DNA from: Escherichia phage UPWr_E1
Sequence record: PP418985.1
DNA: 64,000 nt
Reading direction: 5' to 3' (one strand)
Shown here: positions 49,469-61,339 of the stretch, one piece after another
Layout: every line of letters starts with the position of its first letter
How positions within the stretch are numbered: position 1 is the stretch's first letter
Notes under the pieces: model-generated
Databases searched by the model: none
Told to the model about the DNA's origin: nothing
Seen by the model: the letters and a program-made list of their open reading frames with translations, nothing else
Program-made: the position numbers and the translations under genes

Positions 49469-49497
49469 TTGACAACATGAAACGGGGGTAGTAAGAT
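49469..49497 (+). promoter_or_regulatory. PeSL-like early promoter module 2
   Basis: TTGACA-17-TAAGAT; hairpin GGGGG-tagtaagata-CCCCC spans the -10. Confidence 0.55.
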
Positions 49498-49696: not shown

Positions 49697-49900
49697 ATGG
49701 AATTGGATATGGTTAAAGCAAAATTTATGGGTAAGGATAAGAGCGGTAAAACATTTGTTATTAATAGAACATTGTTTCGCTCTGACCTTAAGTGGGTAAC
49801 ACAACAATTTGCGGAAGTCAACGAGGCAGTTGTGACATGCTTTGTTGATGATAAAAAAGTTTTTGAAATTGATCGTCGTGGGGTGTCTAATGATCACTAA
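49697..49900 (+). CDS. hypothetical protein (67 aa)
   Basis: AAGGTGA RBS. Confidence 0.5.
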   Translation: MELDMVKAKFMGKDKSGKTFVINRTLFRSDLKWVTQQFAEVNEAVVTCFVDDKKVFEIDRRGVSNDH

Positions 49901-50087
49901 ACTGTTTAGCAATACTTTGTTTATGATTGCATTTGTTTTCTTTCTGTGTCTGATGATCGGTGTTGTTACAGTAGGTAGCTATTCCGGTGTTACCTTAGAT
50001 GATTTTTGCAAACTTGTTTTGATCTCGTTTATACCTAGTATTCTGCTCGCTTTATGTGGTGCTTTTAAATGGCTTTGTACGCTATGA
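49890..50087 (+). CDS. small membrane protein
   Basis: GGGGTG RBS then ATG 49890; hydrophobic. Confidence 0.45.
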   Translation: MITKLFSNTLFMIAFVFFLCLMIGVVTVGSYSGVTLDDFCKLVLISFIPSILLALCGAFKWLCTL

Positions 50088-50194
50088 ACGAAATAGAACG
50101 AATGATGTTGATAGGTGGACCTGAGTTCACTAAATTTGATGCAATTCTTATTGCGTTTGGTTTTCTTATGATCTTTTGTATGGTGGCGCTATGA
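50084..50194 (+). CDS. small membrane peptide (36 aa)
   Basis: ATGA overlaps on both sides (translational coupling). Confidence 0.35.
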   Translation: MNEIERMMLIGGPEFTKFDAILIAFGFLMIFCMVAL

Positions 50195-50415
50195 GTAGTA
50201 TAAAATATTTCGCTTTCTTGTGCTTTATGATGTTCTTTACATTCTTAGCATGTGTTTTCTTTACCTGGCTTGCTCATGTTGATAATGCAACCGGACCGTT
50301 TTACTTCTTCTGTGTATTGTCTGTGTTGACTGGTGCTTTTGTTACGTGGATGATTCGAGATTGTTACGGAATGTATAAGTTTGAAAAGACTCGACCGAAA
50401 TGGGGCAAACGATGA
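50191..50415 (+). CDS. small membrane protein
   Basis: GGTGG RBS; two hydrophobic segments. Confidence 0.5.
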   Translation: MSSIKYFAFLCFMMFFTFLACVFFTWLAHVDNATGPFYFFCVLSVLTGAFVTWMIRDCYGMYKFEKTRPKWGKR

Positions 50416-50594
50416 AATTATTTGCGTGGCTAATTATTTTAAATGTAATTGTTAAGACCTTTCTCGCTGGTCTGATGATGGCGCATAGCACCGAACCAGA
50501 AGAAGCATTAACGTATTTTGTTGCTTATGTGTTGGGATTCTTGCTTACTGCGTGGATGTGTGATGAATATCGAAGAATTGAGGTAAAACCATGA
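50412..50594 (+). CDS. small membrane protein
   Basis: ATGA overlap with upstream ORF. Confidence 0.5.
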   Translation: MKLFAWLIILNVIVKTFLAGLMMAHSTEPEEALTYFVAYVLGFLLTAWMCDEYRRIEVKP

Positions 50595-50809
50595 AAATGA
50601 CTTTTTATATCTTAGCAAGTATCATGCTTGTGATCTCTTCTGCACTATTTGCATTTCTTACCGTCTGGGGGATCTGTACTGATGCGAAGCCGTGGGATAT
50701 CGTAGAAAATGCGGTTATGTTCCTGATTAGTATCATGTGTCTTTTTGATGCCTTTGACTCTATAAAAGAAGAAGATCAAAAACGTCGCGAGAGAAAGCGA
50801 TATAAATAA
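50591..50809 (+). CDS. small membrane protein with basic C-terminus
   Basis: GAGGTAAAACC RBS; stop codon lies within a TATAAATA motif. Confidence 0.5.
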   Translation: MKMTFYILASIMLVISSALFAFLTVWGICTDAKPWDIVENAVMFLISIMCLFDAFDSIKEEDQKRRERKRYK

Positions 50810-51281: not shown

Positions 51282-51312
51282 TTGACAGGGGAGGATAAAC
51301 TCCCCTACAATA
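51282..51312 (+). promoter_or_regulatory. PeSL-like early promoter module 4
   Basis: TTGACA-18-TACAAT; hairpin GGGGAG-gataaa-CTCCCC in the spacer. Confidence 0.55.
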
Positions 51313-54617: not shown

Positions 54618-55007
54618 ATGTTTAAATTATCTCAAAGAAGCAAAGATCGGCTTGTTGGTGTGCATCCTGATCTGGTAAAAGTCGTTCATCGTGCATTAGA
54701 ACTGACTCCGGTCGATTTTGGTATTACAGAAGGTGTACGTAGTCTCGCAACGCAAAAGAAATATGTTGCGGAAGGTAAATCTAAGACTATGAAATCTCGT
54801 CATCTTCACGGTTTCGCGGTTGATGTTGTAGCGTATCCGAAAGATAAAGATACATGGAACATGAAATATTACCGCATGATCGCTGATGCATTTAAACAAG
54901 CTGGTCGAGAATTGGGTGTTCCTGTTGAGTGGGGCGGGGATTGGACTAGTTTTAAAGATGGTCCTCATCTACAATTGCCACACAGCAAATACCCAGATCC
55001 AAAATAA
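54618..55007 (+). CDS. peptidase M15-type L-alanyl-D-glutamate peptidase (endolysin-like), no signal peptide
   Basis: zinc-site motifs SRHLHGFAVD and WGGDW...DGPHLQL as in VanY/T5-Lys-type peptidases. Confidence 0.75.
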   Translation: MFKLSQRSKDRLVGVHPDLVKVVHRALELTPVDFGITEGVRSLATQKKYVAEGKSKTMKSRHLHGFAVDVVAYPKDKDTWNMKYYRMIADAFKQAGRELGVPVEWGGDWTSFKDGPHLQLPHSKYPDPK

Positions 55008-57350: not shown

Positions 57351-57379
57351 TTGACACACATGTTCGGGGGTAGTAATAT
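57351..57379 (+). promoter_or_regulatory. PeSL-like early promoter module 6
   Basis: TTGACA-17-TAATAT; hairpin GGGGG-tagtaatata-CCCCC; leader CATCGAAACAACAAAGGAG. Confidence 0.55.
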
Positions 57380-57750: not shown

Positions 57751-58173
57751 ATGGAAACAATTAACGTACATGTTCGCCGTAGCAAGCTGCGCAGATTCTT
57801 CGAAACTGAAATGCGTAAGACTAACGCACAAATCAAAGAAAAGTGCTTGAATAATGGTTACGGTGAGTATATTTTCATTCGCTTTAGTCCGCATATGATC
57901 GACCGTCTAACCGACCGCCATATCGATGAACATAAGACAATGGAACTATTCAATAAGGTAGAAACTCGTTTGCCGGAGATCTTCGACTTCCTGAAAATGG
58001 AAGACCGACCTAATCGATTAGAAATCACTGACGGTAACATGTGGATCGGGATGACAGTAGACCTAATTGAAGACGGTAAGCCATATCACGGTCTATGCTG
58101 TCGAATGATTATAGAGAATCCAAAACGACTGGCGGGTAAAATGTCGGCTGTTGTTTTGAAAGTGGACCAATAA
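57751..58173 (+). CDS. hypothetical protein (140 aa)
   Basis: GGAGAA RBS then ATG 57751. Confidence 0.55.
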   Translation: METINVHVRRSKLRRFFETEMRKTNAQIKEKCLNNGYGEYIFIRFSPHMIDRLTDRHIDEHKTMELFNKVETRLPEIFDFLKMEDRPNRLEITDGNMWIGMTVDLIEDGKPYHGLCCRMIIENPKRLAGKMSAVVLKVDQ

Positions 58174-58195
58174 TGGAGATTGGTTAAAATAATGC

Positions 58196-58224
58196 TTGAC
58201 TTTCTGGTGATAGGGCTATATTAT
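58196..58224 (+). promoter_or_regulatory. sigma70-type promoter (TTGACT-17-TATTAT)
   Basis: upstream of the secreted transglycosylase gene. Confidence 0.5.
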
Positions 58225-58258
58225 GGAATCAGAAAGTTAAGCCAAACAGGAGAAATTA

Positions 58259-58849
58259 ATGTTAAAAGTTCTAAAAGCGATAGTATTGAGTCTGTCACTA
58301 GCCGTTGGTGCTACACACGCATCGACTAGCGCACCGATCAAAAAAGCGCCGATAGACAACTTTACAGCACACCAACTAGATAATTTACATTTCGCCTATC
58401 AATATGGCGAACAATTCGAGAAAAGCGGTAAGTTGAAAAATGACCATCCGAATATTCGCTATGACGGAAAGGGTTTAGGCCACATCCTGGCGGGTATCGC
58501 ATGGCAAGAATCAAGCGCGGGTGCAAACTTAGCACCAAAGAAAAATCATCATGCTTATGGATTATTTCAAAATTACCTTAAAACGGTGAAAGCGAAAAAT
58601 GCAAAGCGCGGTGTTAAAATGAGTGATCGCCAGACTATCAAATTTATCATGAATCGCGAGGTTTCTGCATTCTACGCGATGGATGAGTTAGCATACTGGC
58701 TGGATGTTCGAAACGGTAATATCCGACTCGCGCTAGCTTCTTACAATGCAGGATGGAACTATAAAGCCGGTTTAGGTTATGCTGATGACGTACTAAAAAA
58801 GGCTAACCATCTAAAGAGTAAAGGCATTCTTAAAACTAAACGCTATTGA
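58259..58849 (+). CDS. secreted lytic transglycosylase (SLT-domain) protein
   Basis: signal peptide MLKVLKAIVLSLSLAVGATHA; SLT motifs AWQESS...YGLFQ and YNAG. Confidence 0.7.
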   Translation: MLKVLKAIVLSLSLAVGATHASTSAPIKKAPIDNFTAHQLDNLHFAYQYGEQFEKSGKLKNDHPNIRYDGKGLGHILAGIAWQESSAGANLAPKKNHHAYGLFQNYLKTVKAKNAKRGVKMSDRQTIKFIMNREVSAFYAMDELAYWLDVRNGNIRLALASYNAGWNYKAGLGYADDVLKKANHLKSKGILKTKRY

Positions 58850-58856
58850 GGAATAT

Positions 58857-59216
58857 ATGAAAAAGTTGACAATAATTGCTATGATTGCTATGATGTTCTC
58901 GGCTGGTGCGCTTGCTAGTAATGAGCGCCCTTATCCAAAGTTCGAATATAAAGGATTTGAGATCAACAAAAAGATCATTAAAACTTTCTGTGATGATGAT
59001 AACATGTGTAGTGATTTTATCGCGCTCGAACTTGATGAAGCATACAAACAAGGTCGAGACGAAAAACGAAAAAATCGAGCATGGGATCTGAGTATTGCCA
59101 GCTTTGCTAAAACAAAACGCAACCTATGTGATACTGCCCCTGATAAGCAATTATGCTTTGCTTATCGCGACACACTGTTAAGCCGTTTTATGGCTGGGTT
59201 GTCTTCCCGTGACTAA
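58857..59216 (+). CDS. secreted hypothetical protein with 4 Cys
   Basis: signal peptide MKKLTIIAMIAMMFSAGALA. Confidence 0.55.
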   Translation: MKKLTIIAMIAMMFSAGALASNERPYPKFEYKGFEINKKIIKTFCDDDNMCSDFIALELDEAYKQGRDEKRKNRAWDLSIASFAKTKRNLCDTAPDKQLCFAYRDTLLSRFMAGLSSRD

Positions 59217-59231
59217 TGAGAGGTTTATATT

Positions 59232-59687
59232 ATGATTATTGATACTGTAAAGGGCGATCTCATCGCCCTGTTTAAACAAGGAAACGGTCATTTAATTCAT
59301 GGTTGTAATTGTTTTCATACTATGGGCGCTGGTATTGCTGCAAAGATCGCGAAAGAGTTCCCGCAAGCGTTAGAGATTGACAAGCAAACTTCTCGCGGTA
59401 AGGTAGAAAAGCTGGGTGGGTTTAGTGTCTGGACGCATCAAGTTAATGGTTATAACTGGTGCGGGGTGAATCTCTATACCCAATTCCGACCGGGTCCAAA
59501 TGCTGAATATGGTGCTATCCTGAAAGGATTTGAGACTATCAATGATGTTTTTGAAGGTGCTATACAGCCTTTCTATATTCCTAAAATCGGTTGCGGTATC
59601 GGTGGCCTTGAGTGGGAATGTGTAGAAGAGATCATTAATATTGCTACTCCAGACATTAACATTGTGGTGGTTGAATATGACAAATAA
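59232..59687 (+). CDS. macro-domain-like protein (putative ADP-ribose binding/processing)
   Basis: LIHGCNCFHTMGAGIAAKI and IPKIGCGIGGL resemble macro-domain motifs (VNAAN..GGGV.GAI and P.IG.G..G); tentative. Confidence 0.4.
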   Translation: MIIDTVKGDLIALFKQGNGHLIHGCNCFHTMGAGIAAKIAKEFPQALEIDKQTSRGKVEKLGGFSVWTHQVNGYNWCGVNLYTQFRPGPNAEYGAILKGFETINDVFEGAIQPFYIPKIGCGIGGLEWECVEEIINIATPDINIVVVEYDK

Positions 59688-60086: not shown

Positions 60087-60372
60087 GACTATCATTAACC
60101 TTGTTATGTGGACTTTTAATTTCGTTATTGTTATTATGGCGGGTATTGAGATTGTCAAGCAATATCTGTTACAATCCAGAAATAAACATGTTGTAATTGA
60201 TATGGACTCTCAAGGAAATAAGCTGATCCGGTTAGAATATGGTCGGGAATATTGGGTAGGTTATCCAAAGACACTACGCGGATTTATCTTTGCTATGGGT
60301 GTTTGCTTCTTTTTCCTTTGTATCTGGGTTTATGTTGGTTTATGTCTTGCTGGATTTTTGGAGATTAATTAA
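60079..60372 (+). CDS. membrane protein (97 aa)
   Basis: two hydrophobic segments; stop overlaps tk start. Confidence 0.5.
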   Translation: MLETIINLVMWTFNFVIVIMAGIEIVKQYLLQSRNKHVVIDMDSQGNKLIRLEYGREYWVGYPKTLRGFIFAMGVCFFFLCIWVYVGLCLAGFLEIN

Positions 60373-60968
60373 TGGCGCAACTATATTTCTACTATGCATC
60401 TATGAACGCTGGCAAATCAACTTCCCTGTTACAAAGTGCTTATAACTATACCGAACGTGATATGCGAGTATTAATTCTTAAGCCAGCGATTGATAATCGA
60501 GATTCAGAAAGTGAAGTTGTTTCCCGAATTGGTCTAAGTGCTCCAGCGATCACCTTCACTAAATCGGATGATCTTTTCGACTTGGTTTATCGTGAATCAC
60601 TAGGTAAGCGTAGACCGGATCGCTGGCGTCCAGATGCTGTATTTGTAGATGAAGCCCAATTTATGACTAAAGAGCATGTTTTAGGCTTGTGTGCGCTTGT
60701 TGATGATGCAAATATCCCTGTACTGTGCTATGGCCTTCGCACTGACTTTCAGGGCAATCTATTTGAAGGATCTGCGGCATTGATGGCATTTGCTGATAAA
60801 CTGGTCGAAATGAAGGGTATTTGTCATTGCGGTAAGAAAGCAACAATGGTCCTTCGTGTAGATAAAGAGGGTAATGTTATTCGCGATGGTGCTCAAATAG
60901 AAGTTGGTGCAGAGGATAAATATGTTTCTGTGTGCCGTAAACATTTTATTGACGGCACTACCAACTAA
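60372..60968 (+). CDS. tk: thymidine kinase
   Basis: P-loop MNAGKSTSLL; VFVDEAQF; C-terminal CHCG...C zinc site; matches recalled T4 Tk. Confidence 0.9.
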   Translation: MAQLYFYYASMNAGKSTSLLQSAYNYTERDMRVLILKPAIDNRDSESEVVSRIGLSAPAITFTKSDDLFDLVYRESLGKRRPDRWRPDAVFVDEAQFMTKEHVLGLCALVDDANIPVLCYGLRTDFQGNLFEGSAALMAFADKLVEMKGICHCGKKATMVLRVDKEGNVIRDGAQIEVGAEDKYVSVCRKHFIDGTTN

Positions 60969-61036: not shown

Positions 61037-61339
61037 ATGTCATTTATTCGTAAAACTCTAACAGCGGCAATATGCTTGACTGCGGTCGGAAGTGTCAGTG
61101 CTGATCAATATGATCCAACTGGTGACTTTACTGATTATTTCGACGGTGCAATGATAGTATATGTAAACAAAATATCTCCTTCCATTGAAACCAGCCAGAA
61201 ATTTCATGCCCATATTATGAAGATGTATGCTCGTAGTAAATGTATGGATTCTAAGCAGTGTTTTATTATGGGGGAATATGCCGCACAACAATTTGTTATG
61301 TTGCATAATGTGGAGAATCGAGAACATGAAATTCAGTGA
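61037..61339 (+). CDS. rI: RI-like lysis inhibition regulator (periplasmic)
   Basis: signal-anchor then DP...F...YV.K.S......F...M..Y....C.....C pattern as in recalled T4 RI; adjacent to tk as in T4. Confidence 0.5.
   Translation: MSFIRKTLTAAICLTAVGSVSADQYDPTGDFTDYFDGAMIVYVNKISPSIETSQKFHAHIMKMYARSKCMDSKQCFIMGEYAAQQFVMLHNVENREHEIQ

What the first reader, a model, noticed from the sequence alone, without database searches (positions are those of the whole stretch)
58196..59216. Secreted SLT-domain transglycosylase and adjacent secreted protein with their own sigma70 promoter
Both proteins have cleavable signal peptides, and the first carries SLT motifs (ES..., GLFQ, YNAG). Periplasmic murein-remodelling enzymes made from a host-type promoter suggest modification of the cell envelope during infection (superinfection exclusion, lysis timing or injection support) rather than virion function.
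Basis: partly seen in the sequence, partly recalled or inferred. Interest (0 to 1): 0.4.

Follow-up and report, generated by a model that had tools for sequence, protein, structure and literature searches.

The report
Phage vs.1–vs secreted gene pair
These are the already catalogued genes vs.1 and vs of an RB49-like (T4-type) coliphage: an early-made, exported cell-wall-cutting enzyme followed by a small exported protein. The one real puzzle is that databases label the small protein a modifier of a cytoplasmic host enzyme.

Summary
The window is a Krischvirus (RB49/phi1/JSE-like) genome. ORF 58259-58849 is the ortholog of T4 Vs.1. It matches the SLT/GH23 lytic transglycosylase domain, keeps the catalytic Glu-Ser, GLFQ and SYNAG motifs, and has a Sec-type signal peptide. 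ORF 58857-59216 is the ortholog of T4 Vs, annotated "valyl-tRNA synthetase modifier". It too has a conserved signal peptide, plus four invariant cysteines. The promoter at 58196-58224 is an ordinary RB49-type early promoter with a stem-loop (PeSL).

None of this is new. The SLT similarity of vs.1 was published in 2006, and identical proteins are in GenBank.

My survey adds three points:
- vs always abuts vs.1, in 53 of 53 loci that have vs.
- The Vs family is tiny and phage-only.
- Its features predict a periplasmic, disulfide-bonded protein, which conflicts with the cytoplasmic ValRS story.

T4 transposon data show fitness costs for both genes. The cost for vs is strongest in minimal medium.

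The function in infection remains untested. Superinfection exclusion and lysis timing are guesses. Interest is low to moderate.

The parts
58194..58242 (+). PeSL-type stem-loop spanning the promoter (arms 58194-58208 and 58228-58242, 15 bp with 2 G-U pairs)
   Evidence: RNA fold dG -19.6 kcal/mol, z -2.42 against shuffles. The element class is described for RB49/phi1 in PMC2839356.
58196..58224 (+). sigma70-type early promoter: -35 TTGACT (58196-58201), 17-nt spacer, -10 TATTAT (58219-58224), with AT-rich DNA upstream (58180-58195)
   Evidence: The hexamers are conserved in L081 and in the divergent L082. Such motifs are enriched in intergenic DNA. Activity was not tested.
58249..58252 (+). 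Shine-Dalgarno GGAG of vs.1, 6 nt before the ATG. GGAG in an SD is also the recognition sequence of the RegB nuclease encoded just upstream.
   Evidence: Sequence. RegB specificity from PMC3014915. Cleavage here is inference; the GGAG is not kept in L082 or T4.
58259..58849 (+). vs.1: 196-aa precursor of a secreted SLT/GH23 lytic-transglycosylase-like protein. Predicted mature form 175 aa, 19.7 kDa, pI 9.8.
   Evidence: The sequence is identical to GenBank WWT36722.1.
58259..58321 (+). predicted Sec signal peptide of Vs.1 (residues 1-21, cleavage THA|STS)
   Evidence: Heuristic n/h/c-region test, passed by 20 of 21 homologs. pLDDT is below 60 for residues 1-30.
58508..58510 (+). codon of Glu84, the predicted catalytic acid (E-S motif)
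   Evidence: Invariant in 21 homologs. It aligns with Glu64 of E. coli MltE. That Glu64 is the catalytic residue of MltE comes from my own knowledge.
58848..58852 (+). Shine-Dalgarno GAGGA of vs, overlapping the vs.1 stop codon (TGA 58847-58849). The layout suggests translational coupling.
   Evidence: Sequence. The gap between vs.1 and vs is -8 to +7 nt in all 53 loci that have vs.
58857..59216 (+). vs: 119-aa precursor of the Vs / PF26829 family ('valyl-tRNA synthetase modifier'). Predicted mature form is a 99-aa four-helix protein with two Cys pairs (C45, C51, C91, C100).
   Evidence: The sequence is identical to the phi1/JSE proteins.
58857..58916 (+). predicted Sec signal peptide of Vs (residues 1-20, cleavage ALA|SNE)
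   Evidence: Heuristic test passed by 50 of 54 homologs and seen in 10 further divergent members. pLDDT is below 50 for residues 1-28.

Best explanation
This is the conserved early gene pair vs.1-vs of a Krischvirus (RB49-like, T4-type) phage.

Proposed sequence of events:
1. Host RNA polymerase with sigma70 starts at a PeSL-type early promoter in the regB/vs.1 gap.
2. The transcript encodes Vs.1, and 7 nt later Vs, whose ribosome-binding site overlaps the vs.1 stop codon.
3. Both products carry Sec signal peptides and are exported to the periplasm within the first minutes of infection.
4. Mature Vs.1 (about 20 kDa, basic) is a single-domain family-1-like lytic transglycosylase with Glu84 as the catalytic acid. 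It would cleave or remodel host murein from the periplasmic side.
5. Mature Vs (about 11.6 kDa) is a four-helix protein stapled by two local disulfides. It acts in the same compartment, most simply as a partner or modulator of Vs.1 or of the envelope process Vs.1 serves.

Shown here: gene identity, domain, motifs, fold, conserved export signals, strict gene linkage, and promoter conservation.

Inferred: actual export and cleavage, muralytic activity, disulfides, any Vs-Vs.1 contact, and the biological role (an accessory function that improves fitness rather than lysis itself).
For: Identity:
- 97-99% nucleotide identity to Krischvirus genomes with gene order regB, vs.1, vs, tk.4, tk.
- 52% amino-acid identity to T4 Vs.1 and 27% (E 4e-8, all four Cys aligned) to T4 Vs.

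Enzyme:
- Pfam SLT above the gathering score, and matched by 20 of 21 homologs.
- AF2 model with pLDDT 84.6.
- The best PDB matches are the lytic transglycosylases MltD, Slt and LtgA and a GH23 chitinase, with probability 0.97-1.0.
- E84, S86, AYGxFQN and SYNAG are invariant.
- E84 aligns with MltE Glu64.

Export:
- Signal-peptide features are kept in 20 of 21 Vs.1 and 50 of 54 Vs homologs although the sequence there is not conserved.
- They are also present in the Ackermannviridae and Ounavirinae Vs.1 homologs.
- Four Cys are invariant in Vs.
- N-terminally His-tagged T4 Vs is insoluble in the cytoplasm.

Linkage:
- vs lies directly after vs.1, with a gap of -8 to +7 nt, in every locus that has vs, whether the loci were sampled through vs.1 or through vs.
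- The pairing persists in Acinetobacter phages where regB and tk are absent.
- In some phages the pair sits in one string with e lysozyme and the rI antiholin.

Phenotype (T4 HIDEN-SEQ):
- Both genes are non-essential.
- Both have roughly 10-fold fewer insertion reads than their neighbours in LB.
- vs is the most depleted gene in M9 (log2FC -2.19). vs.1 is mildly depleted (-0.87, p 0.0055, adjusted p 0.155).

Promoter.
Against: - No experiment on Vs.1 exists in the searchable literature.
- Classical T4 work assigns Vs to binding cytoplasmic valyl-tRNA synthetase, which a periplasmic location would contradict.
- Vs.1 occurs without Vs in Aeromonas T4-like phages, Ackermannviridae, Ounavirinae and Vibrio phages. 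Vs is therefore not required for Vs.1.
- A mirror-tree test found no co-evolution of Vs.1 and Vs beyond shared phylogeny (partial r -0.015 given RegB, p 0.62).
- The milder vs.1 insertion phenotype in T4 could be a polar effect on the translationally coupled vs.
- Foldseek E-values for the SLT fold are weak (0.02-0.1), and a profile search of PDB sequences found no SLT protein.
- Signal peptides were judged with a home-made heuristic, not SignalP.
Confidence: 0.65

Rival explanations
1. The database annotation is right and sufficient. Vs stays in the cytoplasm, where it binds and alters host valyl-tRNA synthetase. Its hydrophobic N-terminus is not a working export signal. Its position behind vs.1 is operon packing without functional meaning. 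Vs.1 is an unrelated periplasmic enzyme.
For: - T4 genetics and biochemistry as cited by later papers.
- A vs knockout impairs plaque formation specifically in minimal medium, where amino-acid supply and tRNA charging are limiting.
- There is no co-evolution signal with Vs.1.
- Vs.1 exists without Vs in many phages.
Against: - Signal-peptide features and four invariant Cys are conserved across a family that is otherwise only about 40% identical. Conservation of these properties without sequence conservation is typical of export signals and is hard to explain for a cytoplasmic binder.
- Adjacency to vs.1 is strict in 53 of 53 loci.
- The primary papers linking this particular ORF to the tau factor could not be read.
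Confidence: 0.2
2. Vs.1 is a lysis enzyme: a signal-peptide endolysin or auxiliary endolysin that is exported early and held in check (by Vs or by the energised membrane) until lysis. This would matter most in RB49-like phages, which lack T4 gene e.
For: - RB49 and phi1 have no gene e.
- In some relatives vs.1-vs sit between e lysozyme and the rI antiholin.
- rI lies within 2 kb in the window.
- Nolan et al. suggested 'some role in cell lysis'.
Against: - The window encodes a cytoplasmic Peptidase_M15_4 protein at 54618-55007, the usual endolysin type of such phages.
- T4 has both e and vs.1, and vs.1 is non-essential there.
- If Vs merely restrained a toxic Vs.1, vs.1 insertions should be neutral. 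In T4 they are costly instead.
- Expression comes from an early, not a late, promoter.
Confidence: 0.1
3. Vs.1 is a catalytically dead murein-binding protein (for example a decoy or blocker at the wall, as in superinfection exclusion) rather than an enzyme.
For: - Weak scores against canonical SLT proteins.
- No homologs in plasmids or in 185,579 species genomes, so it is a divergent phage-only branch.
Against: The catalytic Glu and all three family-1 motifs are invariant across Straboviridae and are recognisable in Ackermannviridae and Ounavirinae homologs. This is the pattern expected of an active enzyme.
Confidence: 0.05

Closest known systems
T4 Vs.1 (UniProt 'Uncharacterized 20.7 kDa protein in vs-regB intergenic region'; PHROG 600)
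   Same: Ortholog: 52% identity over the mature part, the same position between regB and vs, the same signal peptide and the same SLT motifs.
   Different: The window gene has a 15-residue longer N-terminal linker and its own promoter in an 85-nt gap. In T4 the gene starts 8 nt after regB.
T4 Vs, valyl-tRNA ligase modifier (VS_BPT4; Pfam PF26829 ValRS_modifier; PHROG 1256)
   Same: Homolog: 27% identity, four aligned Cys, the same C-terminal GLS(S/T)R, the same size and the same position after vs.1.
   Different: The family diverges fast (mean pairwise distance 0.60 against 0.36 for Vs.1). The ValRS function has never been tested for the RB49-type protein, and the predicted location (periplasm) does not fit it.
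Family 1 lytic transglycosylases (GH23; E. coli Slt70, MltC/D/E; Pfam SLT PF01464)
   Same: Fold, catalytic Glu-Ser, GLMQ-like and AYNxG-like motifs, and periplasmic location.
   Different: A very divergent phage-only branch that sequence profiles do not link to solved LTs. It has no lipobox and no accessory domains.
'Specialised' small secreted lytic transglycosylases of secretion and conjugation systems (VirB1, P19 of plasmid R1, IagB, EtgA) - comparison from my own knowledge
   Same: Architecture: a signal peptide plus a lone SLT domain of about 150-180 residues, made to open murein locally rather than to lyse the cell.
   Different: No trans-envelope machine is encoded next to vs.1. There is no detectable sequence match in 72,556 plasmids.
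T4 Spackle (gp61.3), a small periplasmic helical inhibitor of the gp5 tail lysozyme (PMC7650644)
   Same: Like Vs, it is a small early phage protein with a signal peptide, all-helical and disulfide-containing, that acts in the periplasm on a muralytic enzyme.
   Different: There is no fold or sequence similarity. Foldseek of the Vs model against the PDB and BFVD returned only Vs family members. Inhibition of Vs.1 by Vs is not supported by the T4 fitness data.
PeSL (promoter-early stem-loop) cassettes of RB49/phi1 (Arbiol et al. 2010, PMC2839356)
   Same: AT-rich upstream tract, sigma70-consensus hexamers, a stem-loop overlapping the promoter, then SD and ATG.
   Different: The stem is A/U-rich with no GGGG/CCCC tract, unlike the neighbouring PeSLs at 49469, 51282 and 57351.

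Membership tests
SLT / GH23 family-1 lytic transglycosylase | Sequence match to the SLT domain model above the curated threshold | tested here: met
   PF01464, 25.9 bits against a cutoff of 21.3. 20 of 21 homologs match at E <= 0.01.
SLT / GH23 family-1 lytic transglycosylase | Lysozyme-like all-helical fold | tested here: met
   AF2 model with pLDDT 84.6. The top Foldseek PDB hits are MltD, Slt, LtgA, Cj0843 and a GH23 chitinase, with probability 0.97-1.0 and TM about 0.4-0.5, but weak E-values of 0.02-0.4.
SLT / GH23 family-1 lytic transglycosylase | Catalytic Glu in an E-S motif, plus GLMQ-type and AYNxG-type motifs | tested here: met
   E84-S-S, G101-L-F-Q104 and S161-Y-N-A-G165 are invariant in 21 homologs. 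E84 aligns with MltE Glu64.
SLT / GH23 family-1 lytic transglycosylase | Non-hydrolytic cleavage of MurNAc-GlcNAc bonds giving 1,6-anhydroMurNAc | not testable with these tools
   Needs purified protein, sacculi and HPLC/MS.
Sec-exported periplasmic protein (both ORFs) | N-terminal signal peptide: a positive n-region, a 10-15-residue h-region and an AxA-type c-region, followed by a soluble domain | tested here: met
   Heuristic test passed by 20 of 21 Vs.1 and 50 of 54 Vs homologs. These are the only two soluble-domain ORFs of 87 in the window that pass. SignalP was not available and cleavage was not shown.
Vs / PF26829 ValRS_modifier | Sequence membership of the family that contains T4 Vs | tested here: met
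   Precomputed PF26829 assignment. PHROG 1256 at E 1.8e-33. BLASTP to T4 Vs at E 4e-8.
Vs / PF26829 ValRS_modifier | Binds and alters host valyl-tRNA synthetase | not testable with these tools
   Known only from T4 biochemistry as cited. The primary papers are not held.
Vs / PF26829 ValRS_modifier | Cytoplasmic location, which the ValRS function requires | tested here: not met
   A conserved export signal and four invariant Cys predict a periplasmic, disulfide-bonded protein. This is a prediction only.
PeSL early-promoter cassette of RB49-like phages | Intergenic position, AT-rich upstream tract, sigma70 -35/-10 with 16-18-nt spacing, associated stem-loop, then SD and ATG | tested here: met
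   Transcription was not tested.
Proteinaceous lysozyme/LT inhibitors (Spackle, Ivy, MliC/PliC, LprI) | Fold or sequence similarity of Vs to a known inhibitor | tested here: not met
   Foldseek against the PDB found no hit with probability above 0.23. BFVD returned only Vs relatives. There were no recurring weak Pfam hits in 54 members.

The most novel reading that the evidence does not exclude
Vs, which all databases list as a modifier of cytoplasmic valyl-tRNA synthetase, is in fact an exported, disulfide-bonded periplasmic protein. It works with the exported lytic transglycosylase Vs.1 as a two-gene envelope module of T4-type phages (three genes in some genera). If so, the classical ValRS 'modification' is secondary, arises in extracts after cell breakage, or was assigned to the wrong ORF. 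The minimal-medium defect of T4 vs mutants would then be an envelope phenotype.
Probability: 0.3. Interest if true: 0.6.

Novelty: already known. Interest (0 to 1): 0.3.

Why it matters
As it stands, this is routine annotation of two known accessory genes.

It would matter if followed up, for two reasons:
- T4-type phages would have a third, overlooked muralytic protein besides e and gp5. Even a 2020 paper states that T4 has only those two lysozyme genes. This protein is made early and sent to the periplasm, and it is conserved in more than 2,000 sequenced phages of three families.
- A 50-year-old textbook assignment (Vs as ValRS modifier) sits on a protein whose every conserved feature says 'periplasm'. 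A few simple fractionation and genetics experiments in T4 would settle both points.

Tried and rejected
- **Profile search of the Vs.1 alignment against PDB sequences:** no SLT hit even at E 10. The fold evidence therefore rests on Pfam, AF2 and Foldseek.
- **hhalign of the Vs.1 profile against E. coli MltE:** probability only 0.3. I used it solely to see which residues pair.
- **tblastn of Vs.1 against 72,556 plasmids:** no match.
- **Pattern scan of 185,579 species genomes:** no relative. There is no cellular or plasmid bridge.
- **Vs model against the PDB and BFVD:** nothing outside its own family. AFDB50 was not available.
- **Weak recurring Pfam hits among 54 Vs members:** none. The hits to Dr_adhesin and DUF4148 cover only the signal peptide.
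- **Exhaustive HMM search with the Vs profile over 1.84 billion representatives:** only 27 clusters, all stand-alone proteins of 77-134 aa. No fusion or alternative context was found that could hint at function.
- **Mirror-tree (partial Mantel) test for Vs.1-Vs co-evolution:** no signal beyond phylogeny.
- **'Vs restrains a toxic Vs.1':** rejected as the leading idea, because T4 vs.1 insertions are themselves costly.
- **Signal-anchor-release (SAR) endolysin reading of Vs.1:** rejected. The h-region is about 12 residues and is followed by an AxA site, which is typical of a cleaved signal peptide.
- **Better-scoring promoter-like site inside vs (58866-58894):** judged to be chance.
- **Primary papers:** the T4 genome review and the Müller & Marchin paper are not held.
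Full report
**What the window is.** The 2-kb stretch around the finding is 97-99% identical to 57 sequenced phages of the genus Krischvirus (RB49, phi1, JSE and relatives; Straboviridae). Their records annotate the gene order regB, vs.1, vs, tk.4 (macro domain), three small ORFs, tk, rI. The window has the same ORFs: regB 57751-58173 (Pfam REGB_T4, E 2e-48), ORF 58259-58849, ORF 58857-59216, a macro-domain ORF at 59232-59687 and tk at 60372-60968. Both proteins of the finding occur letter for letter in public records. There they are named 'transglycosylase SLT domain-containing protein' or 'hypothetical protein', and 'valyl-tRNA synthetase modifier'.

**The first protein, Vs.1.**
- It matches Pfam SLT above the curated threshold, as do 20 of 21 homologs.
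- In an alignment of 21 homologs with 41-89% identity to the window protein, E84, S86, H97, A99-Y-G-x-F-Q-N105 and S161-Y-x-A-G165 are invariant. These are the E-S, GLMQ and AYNxG motifs that define family 1 lytic transglycosylases (my own knowledge of Blackburn and Clarke's classification).
- An AlphaFold model built on that alignment has mean pLDDT 84.6.
- Its best matches among solved structures are the lytic transglycosylases MltD, Slt, LtgA and Cj0843 and a GH23 chitinase. The probability is 0.97-1.0, but E-values are weak and TM is about 0.4-0.5.
- Aligned to E. coli MltE, E84 falls on Glu64, the catalytic residue of that enzyme as I know it. The hhalign probability itself is negligible.
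- It is 52% identical to T4 Vs.1.
- I found no experimental study of the protein. A 2020 paper still states that T4 has two lysozyme genes, e and 5.

**The second protein, Vs.**
- It is the homolog of T4 Vs: 27% identity, E 4e-8, all four cysteines and the C-terminal GLS(S/T)R aligned. It belongs to PF26829 'ValRS_modifier' and PHROG 1256.
- In 54 diverse members, C45, C51, G66, C91, C100 and G114-L115 are invariant, while mean column identity is 38%.
- The AlphaFold model shows four helices at residues 28-45, 49-71, 76-86 and 97-115. pLDDT is about 90 there and below 50 for residues 1-28.
- The Cys pairs sit at the helix 1/2 turn and at the loop before helix 4, where they would form two local disulfide staples. 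This is inference.
- The fold has no relative in the PDB or among predicted viral structures outside its own family.
- An exhaustive profile search of 1.84 billion cluster representatives found only 27 clusters, all stand-alone proteins of 77-134 residues.

**Signal peptides.** SignalP was not available, so I scored three features: a positively charged n-region, a hydrophobic window of 10 residues, and a small-x-small site. 20 of 21 Vs.1 homologs and 50 of 54 Vs homologs pass. The failures are truncated sequences or lie just under the hydrophobicity cutoff. Ten more divergent Vs members show the same N-terminus and the four Cys. The residues in this stretch are not conserved; only their properties are. 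That pattern is typical of export signals. T4 Vs.1 and T4 Vs have the same feature, as do Vs.1 homologs in Ackermannviridae and Ounavirinae. In the window, 8 of 87 ORFs pass the test, and the other six are 60-79-residue membrane proteins. Predicted mature sizes are 19.7 kDa (pI 9.8) for Vs.1 and 11.6 kDa for Vs.

**The promoter.**
- TTGACT, 17 nt, TATTAT lies at 58196-58224, in the 85-nt gap after regB. AT-rich DNA lies upstream.
- A 10/12 match alone is not above chance: 35 found against 27.6 +/- 5.1 expected.
- Three things raise it above chance. TTGACN-N16-18-TANNNT motifs are enriched in the 6.9% of the window that is intergenic (5 of 24, p 0.02). Both hexamers are retained in a metagenomic relative whose Vs.1 is only 57% identical, while the spacer has changed. 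The region folds into a 15-bp stem-loop spanning the promoter (dG -19.6 kcal/mol, z -2.4).
- This is the anatomy of the PeSL cassettes that Arbiol et al. described in RB49 and phi1. They showed that representative cassettes act as strong sigma70 promoters and as attenuators.
- Sigma70-type promoters are the normal early promoters of this genus, so the 'host-type promoter' carries no special meaning.
- In T4, Gelderlandvirus and Jiaodavirus, vs.1 starts a few bases after regB with no promoter between them.

**Linkage of the two genes.**
- I collected 90 loci carrying a Vs.1 homolog from annotated phages, IMG/VR and metagenome assemblies.
- Vs was found in 53 of them. In every one it lies directly after vs.1, with a gap of -8 to +7 nt.
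- In the window, the vs ribosome-binding site overlaps the vs.1 stop codon.
- Loci reached through divergent Vs proteins also have Vs.1 immediately upstream.
- The pair stays together in Acinetobacter phages that lack regB and tk at this site.
- In several genera a third ORF (PHROG 4957), also with a signal peptide and cysteines, overlaps the end of vs.
- In one assembly the string reads e lysozyme, vs.1, vs, third ORF, a membrane ORF, rI antiholin.
- Against an obligatory partnership: Vs.1 stands alone in Aeromonas T4-like phages, Ackermannviridae, Ounavirinae and some Vibrio phages.
- Also against it: a partial Mantel test shows no co-evolution of the two proteins beyond shared ancestry (partial r -0.015 given RegB).

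**Functional data from elsewhere.** These come from the HIDEN-SEQ transposon study of T4 (bioRxiv 10.1101/2025.11.20.689424).
- Both genes are non-essential in LB.
- vs is the most depleted gene in M9-glucose, and a vs knockout plaques poorly there.
- In the LB versus M9 sheet of their table, vs goes from a mean of 26.6 to 5.0 reads per site (log2FC -2.19, adjusted p 0). vs.1 goes from 22.6 to 11.9 (log2FC -0.87, p 0.0055, adjusted p 0.155).
- In LB both genes have about ten-fold fewer reads than their neighbours: tk.4 289.6, regB 178.6, vs.3 652.
- Losing either gene is therefore costly. This argues against a simple model in which Vs only restrains a toxic Vs.1.
- It fits either a shared pathway or a polar effect of vs.1 insertions on the coupled vs.
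- Separately, N-terminally His-tagged T4 Vs was insoluble when made in the cytoplasm.

**Interpretation.** The best-supported reading is an early-expressed pair of exported proteins. One is a periplasmic single-domain lytic transglycosylase. The other is a small disulfide-stapled helical protein acting in the same compartment.
- In architecture Vs.1 resembles the small 'specialised' secreted transglycosylases of secretion and conjugation systems (my own knowledge), but it has no detectable sequence relatives in plasmids or cellular genomes.
- It is unlikely to be the endolysin. The window encodes a cytoplasmic Peptidase_M15_4 protein at 54618-55007. RB49-like phages lack gene e, but T4 has both e and vs.1.
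- What the enzyme does for the phage is unknown.

**The unresolved conflict.** The name 'valyl-tRNA synthetase modifier' requires a cytoplasmic protein, yet every conserved feature of the family predicts export. Mature T4 Vs would be 11.0 kDa against 13.1 kDa for the precursor. From memory, the purified tau factor was reported at about 10 kDa. I could not check this because the paper is not held. If tau is the processed form, it has passed through the Sec system. I rate the reading that Vs is really a periplasmic partner of Vs.1 at about 0.3.

**Verdict.** The genes are already known and annotated, so interest is low to moderate. What interest there is comes from the Vs localisation paradox and from the neglect of Vs.1 as a third muralytic candidate of T4-type phages.

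Noticed in passing
window 59232-59687 (+): The macro-domain ORF right after vs is the ortholog of T4 tk.4. A 2025 preprint names tk.4 AdfM and shows it is needed against the DarTG2 defence system.
   Followed up: partly
window 49469-49497, 51282-51311, 57351-57379 (+): Intergenic sigma70-type promoters whose -10 hexamer sits in the loop of a GGGG/CCCC hairpin. These are textbook PeSL cassettes of RB49/phi1 (Arbiol 2010).
   Followed up: partly
window 54618-55007 (+): A 129-aa Peptidase_M15_4 (VanY-like) protein without a signal peptide. It is probably the endolysin of this phage, since RB49-like phages have no T4 gene e.
   Followed up: partly
window 61037-61339 (+): The rI antiholin homolog (Pfam Antiholin, E 1e-23), another protein with an export-type N-terminus. 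It lies 1.8 kb downstream of vs.
   Followed up: partly
window 58866-58894 (+): A sigma70-like match (TTGACA-17-TATGAT with an upstream TG, 11/12) that scores better than the vs.1 promoter. It lies inside the signal-peptide codons of vs and is probably a chance product of AT-rich hydrophobic codons.
   Followed up: no
window 49848-50809 (+): Four consecutive small ORFs (64-79 aa) that are almost entirely hydrophobic: a cluster of tiny membrane proteins of unknown role.
   Followed up: no
L005:1824-2225, L006:1830-2255, L007:1740-2132, L010:1830-2255: A third secreted, Cys-containing ORF family (PHROG 4957, about 130-140 aa) always overlaps the end of vs in Gelderlandvirus, Jiaodavirus and Acinetobacter T4-like phages. 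It is absent from T4 and from the window.
   Followed up: partly
L086:998-3360: In one metagenomic T4-like phage the genes run e lysozyme, vs.1, vs, third secreted ORF, a membrane ORF and rI antiholin. All overlap, forming a compact envelope/lysis string.
   Followed up: partly
T4 (L002:3887-4772, - strand); HIDEN-SEQ Extended Data Table 6: In T4, vs and vs.1 insertion mutants have roughly ten-fold fewer reads than neighbouring non-essential genes even in LB. The preprint does not comment on this. regB insertions just upstream are not depleted.
   Followed up: partly
window 58249-58252 (+): The vs.1 Shine-Dalgarno is GGAG, the target sequence of the RegB nuclease encoded immediately upstream. 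This could shut off vs.1 translation after the early period. The GGAG is not conserved in T4 or L082.
   Followed up: no
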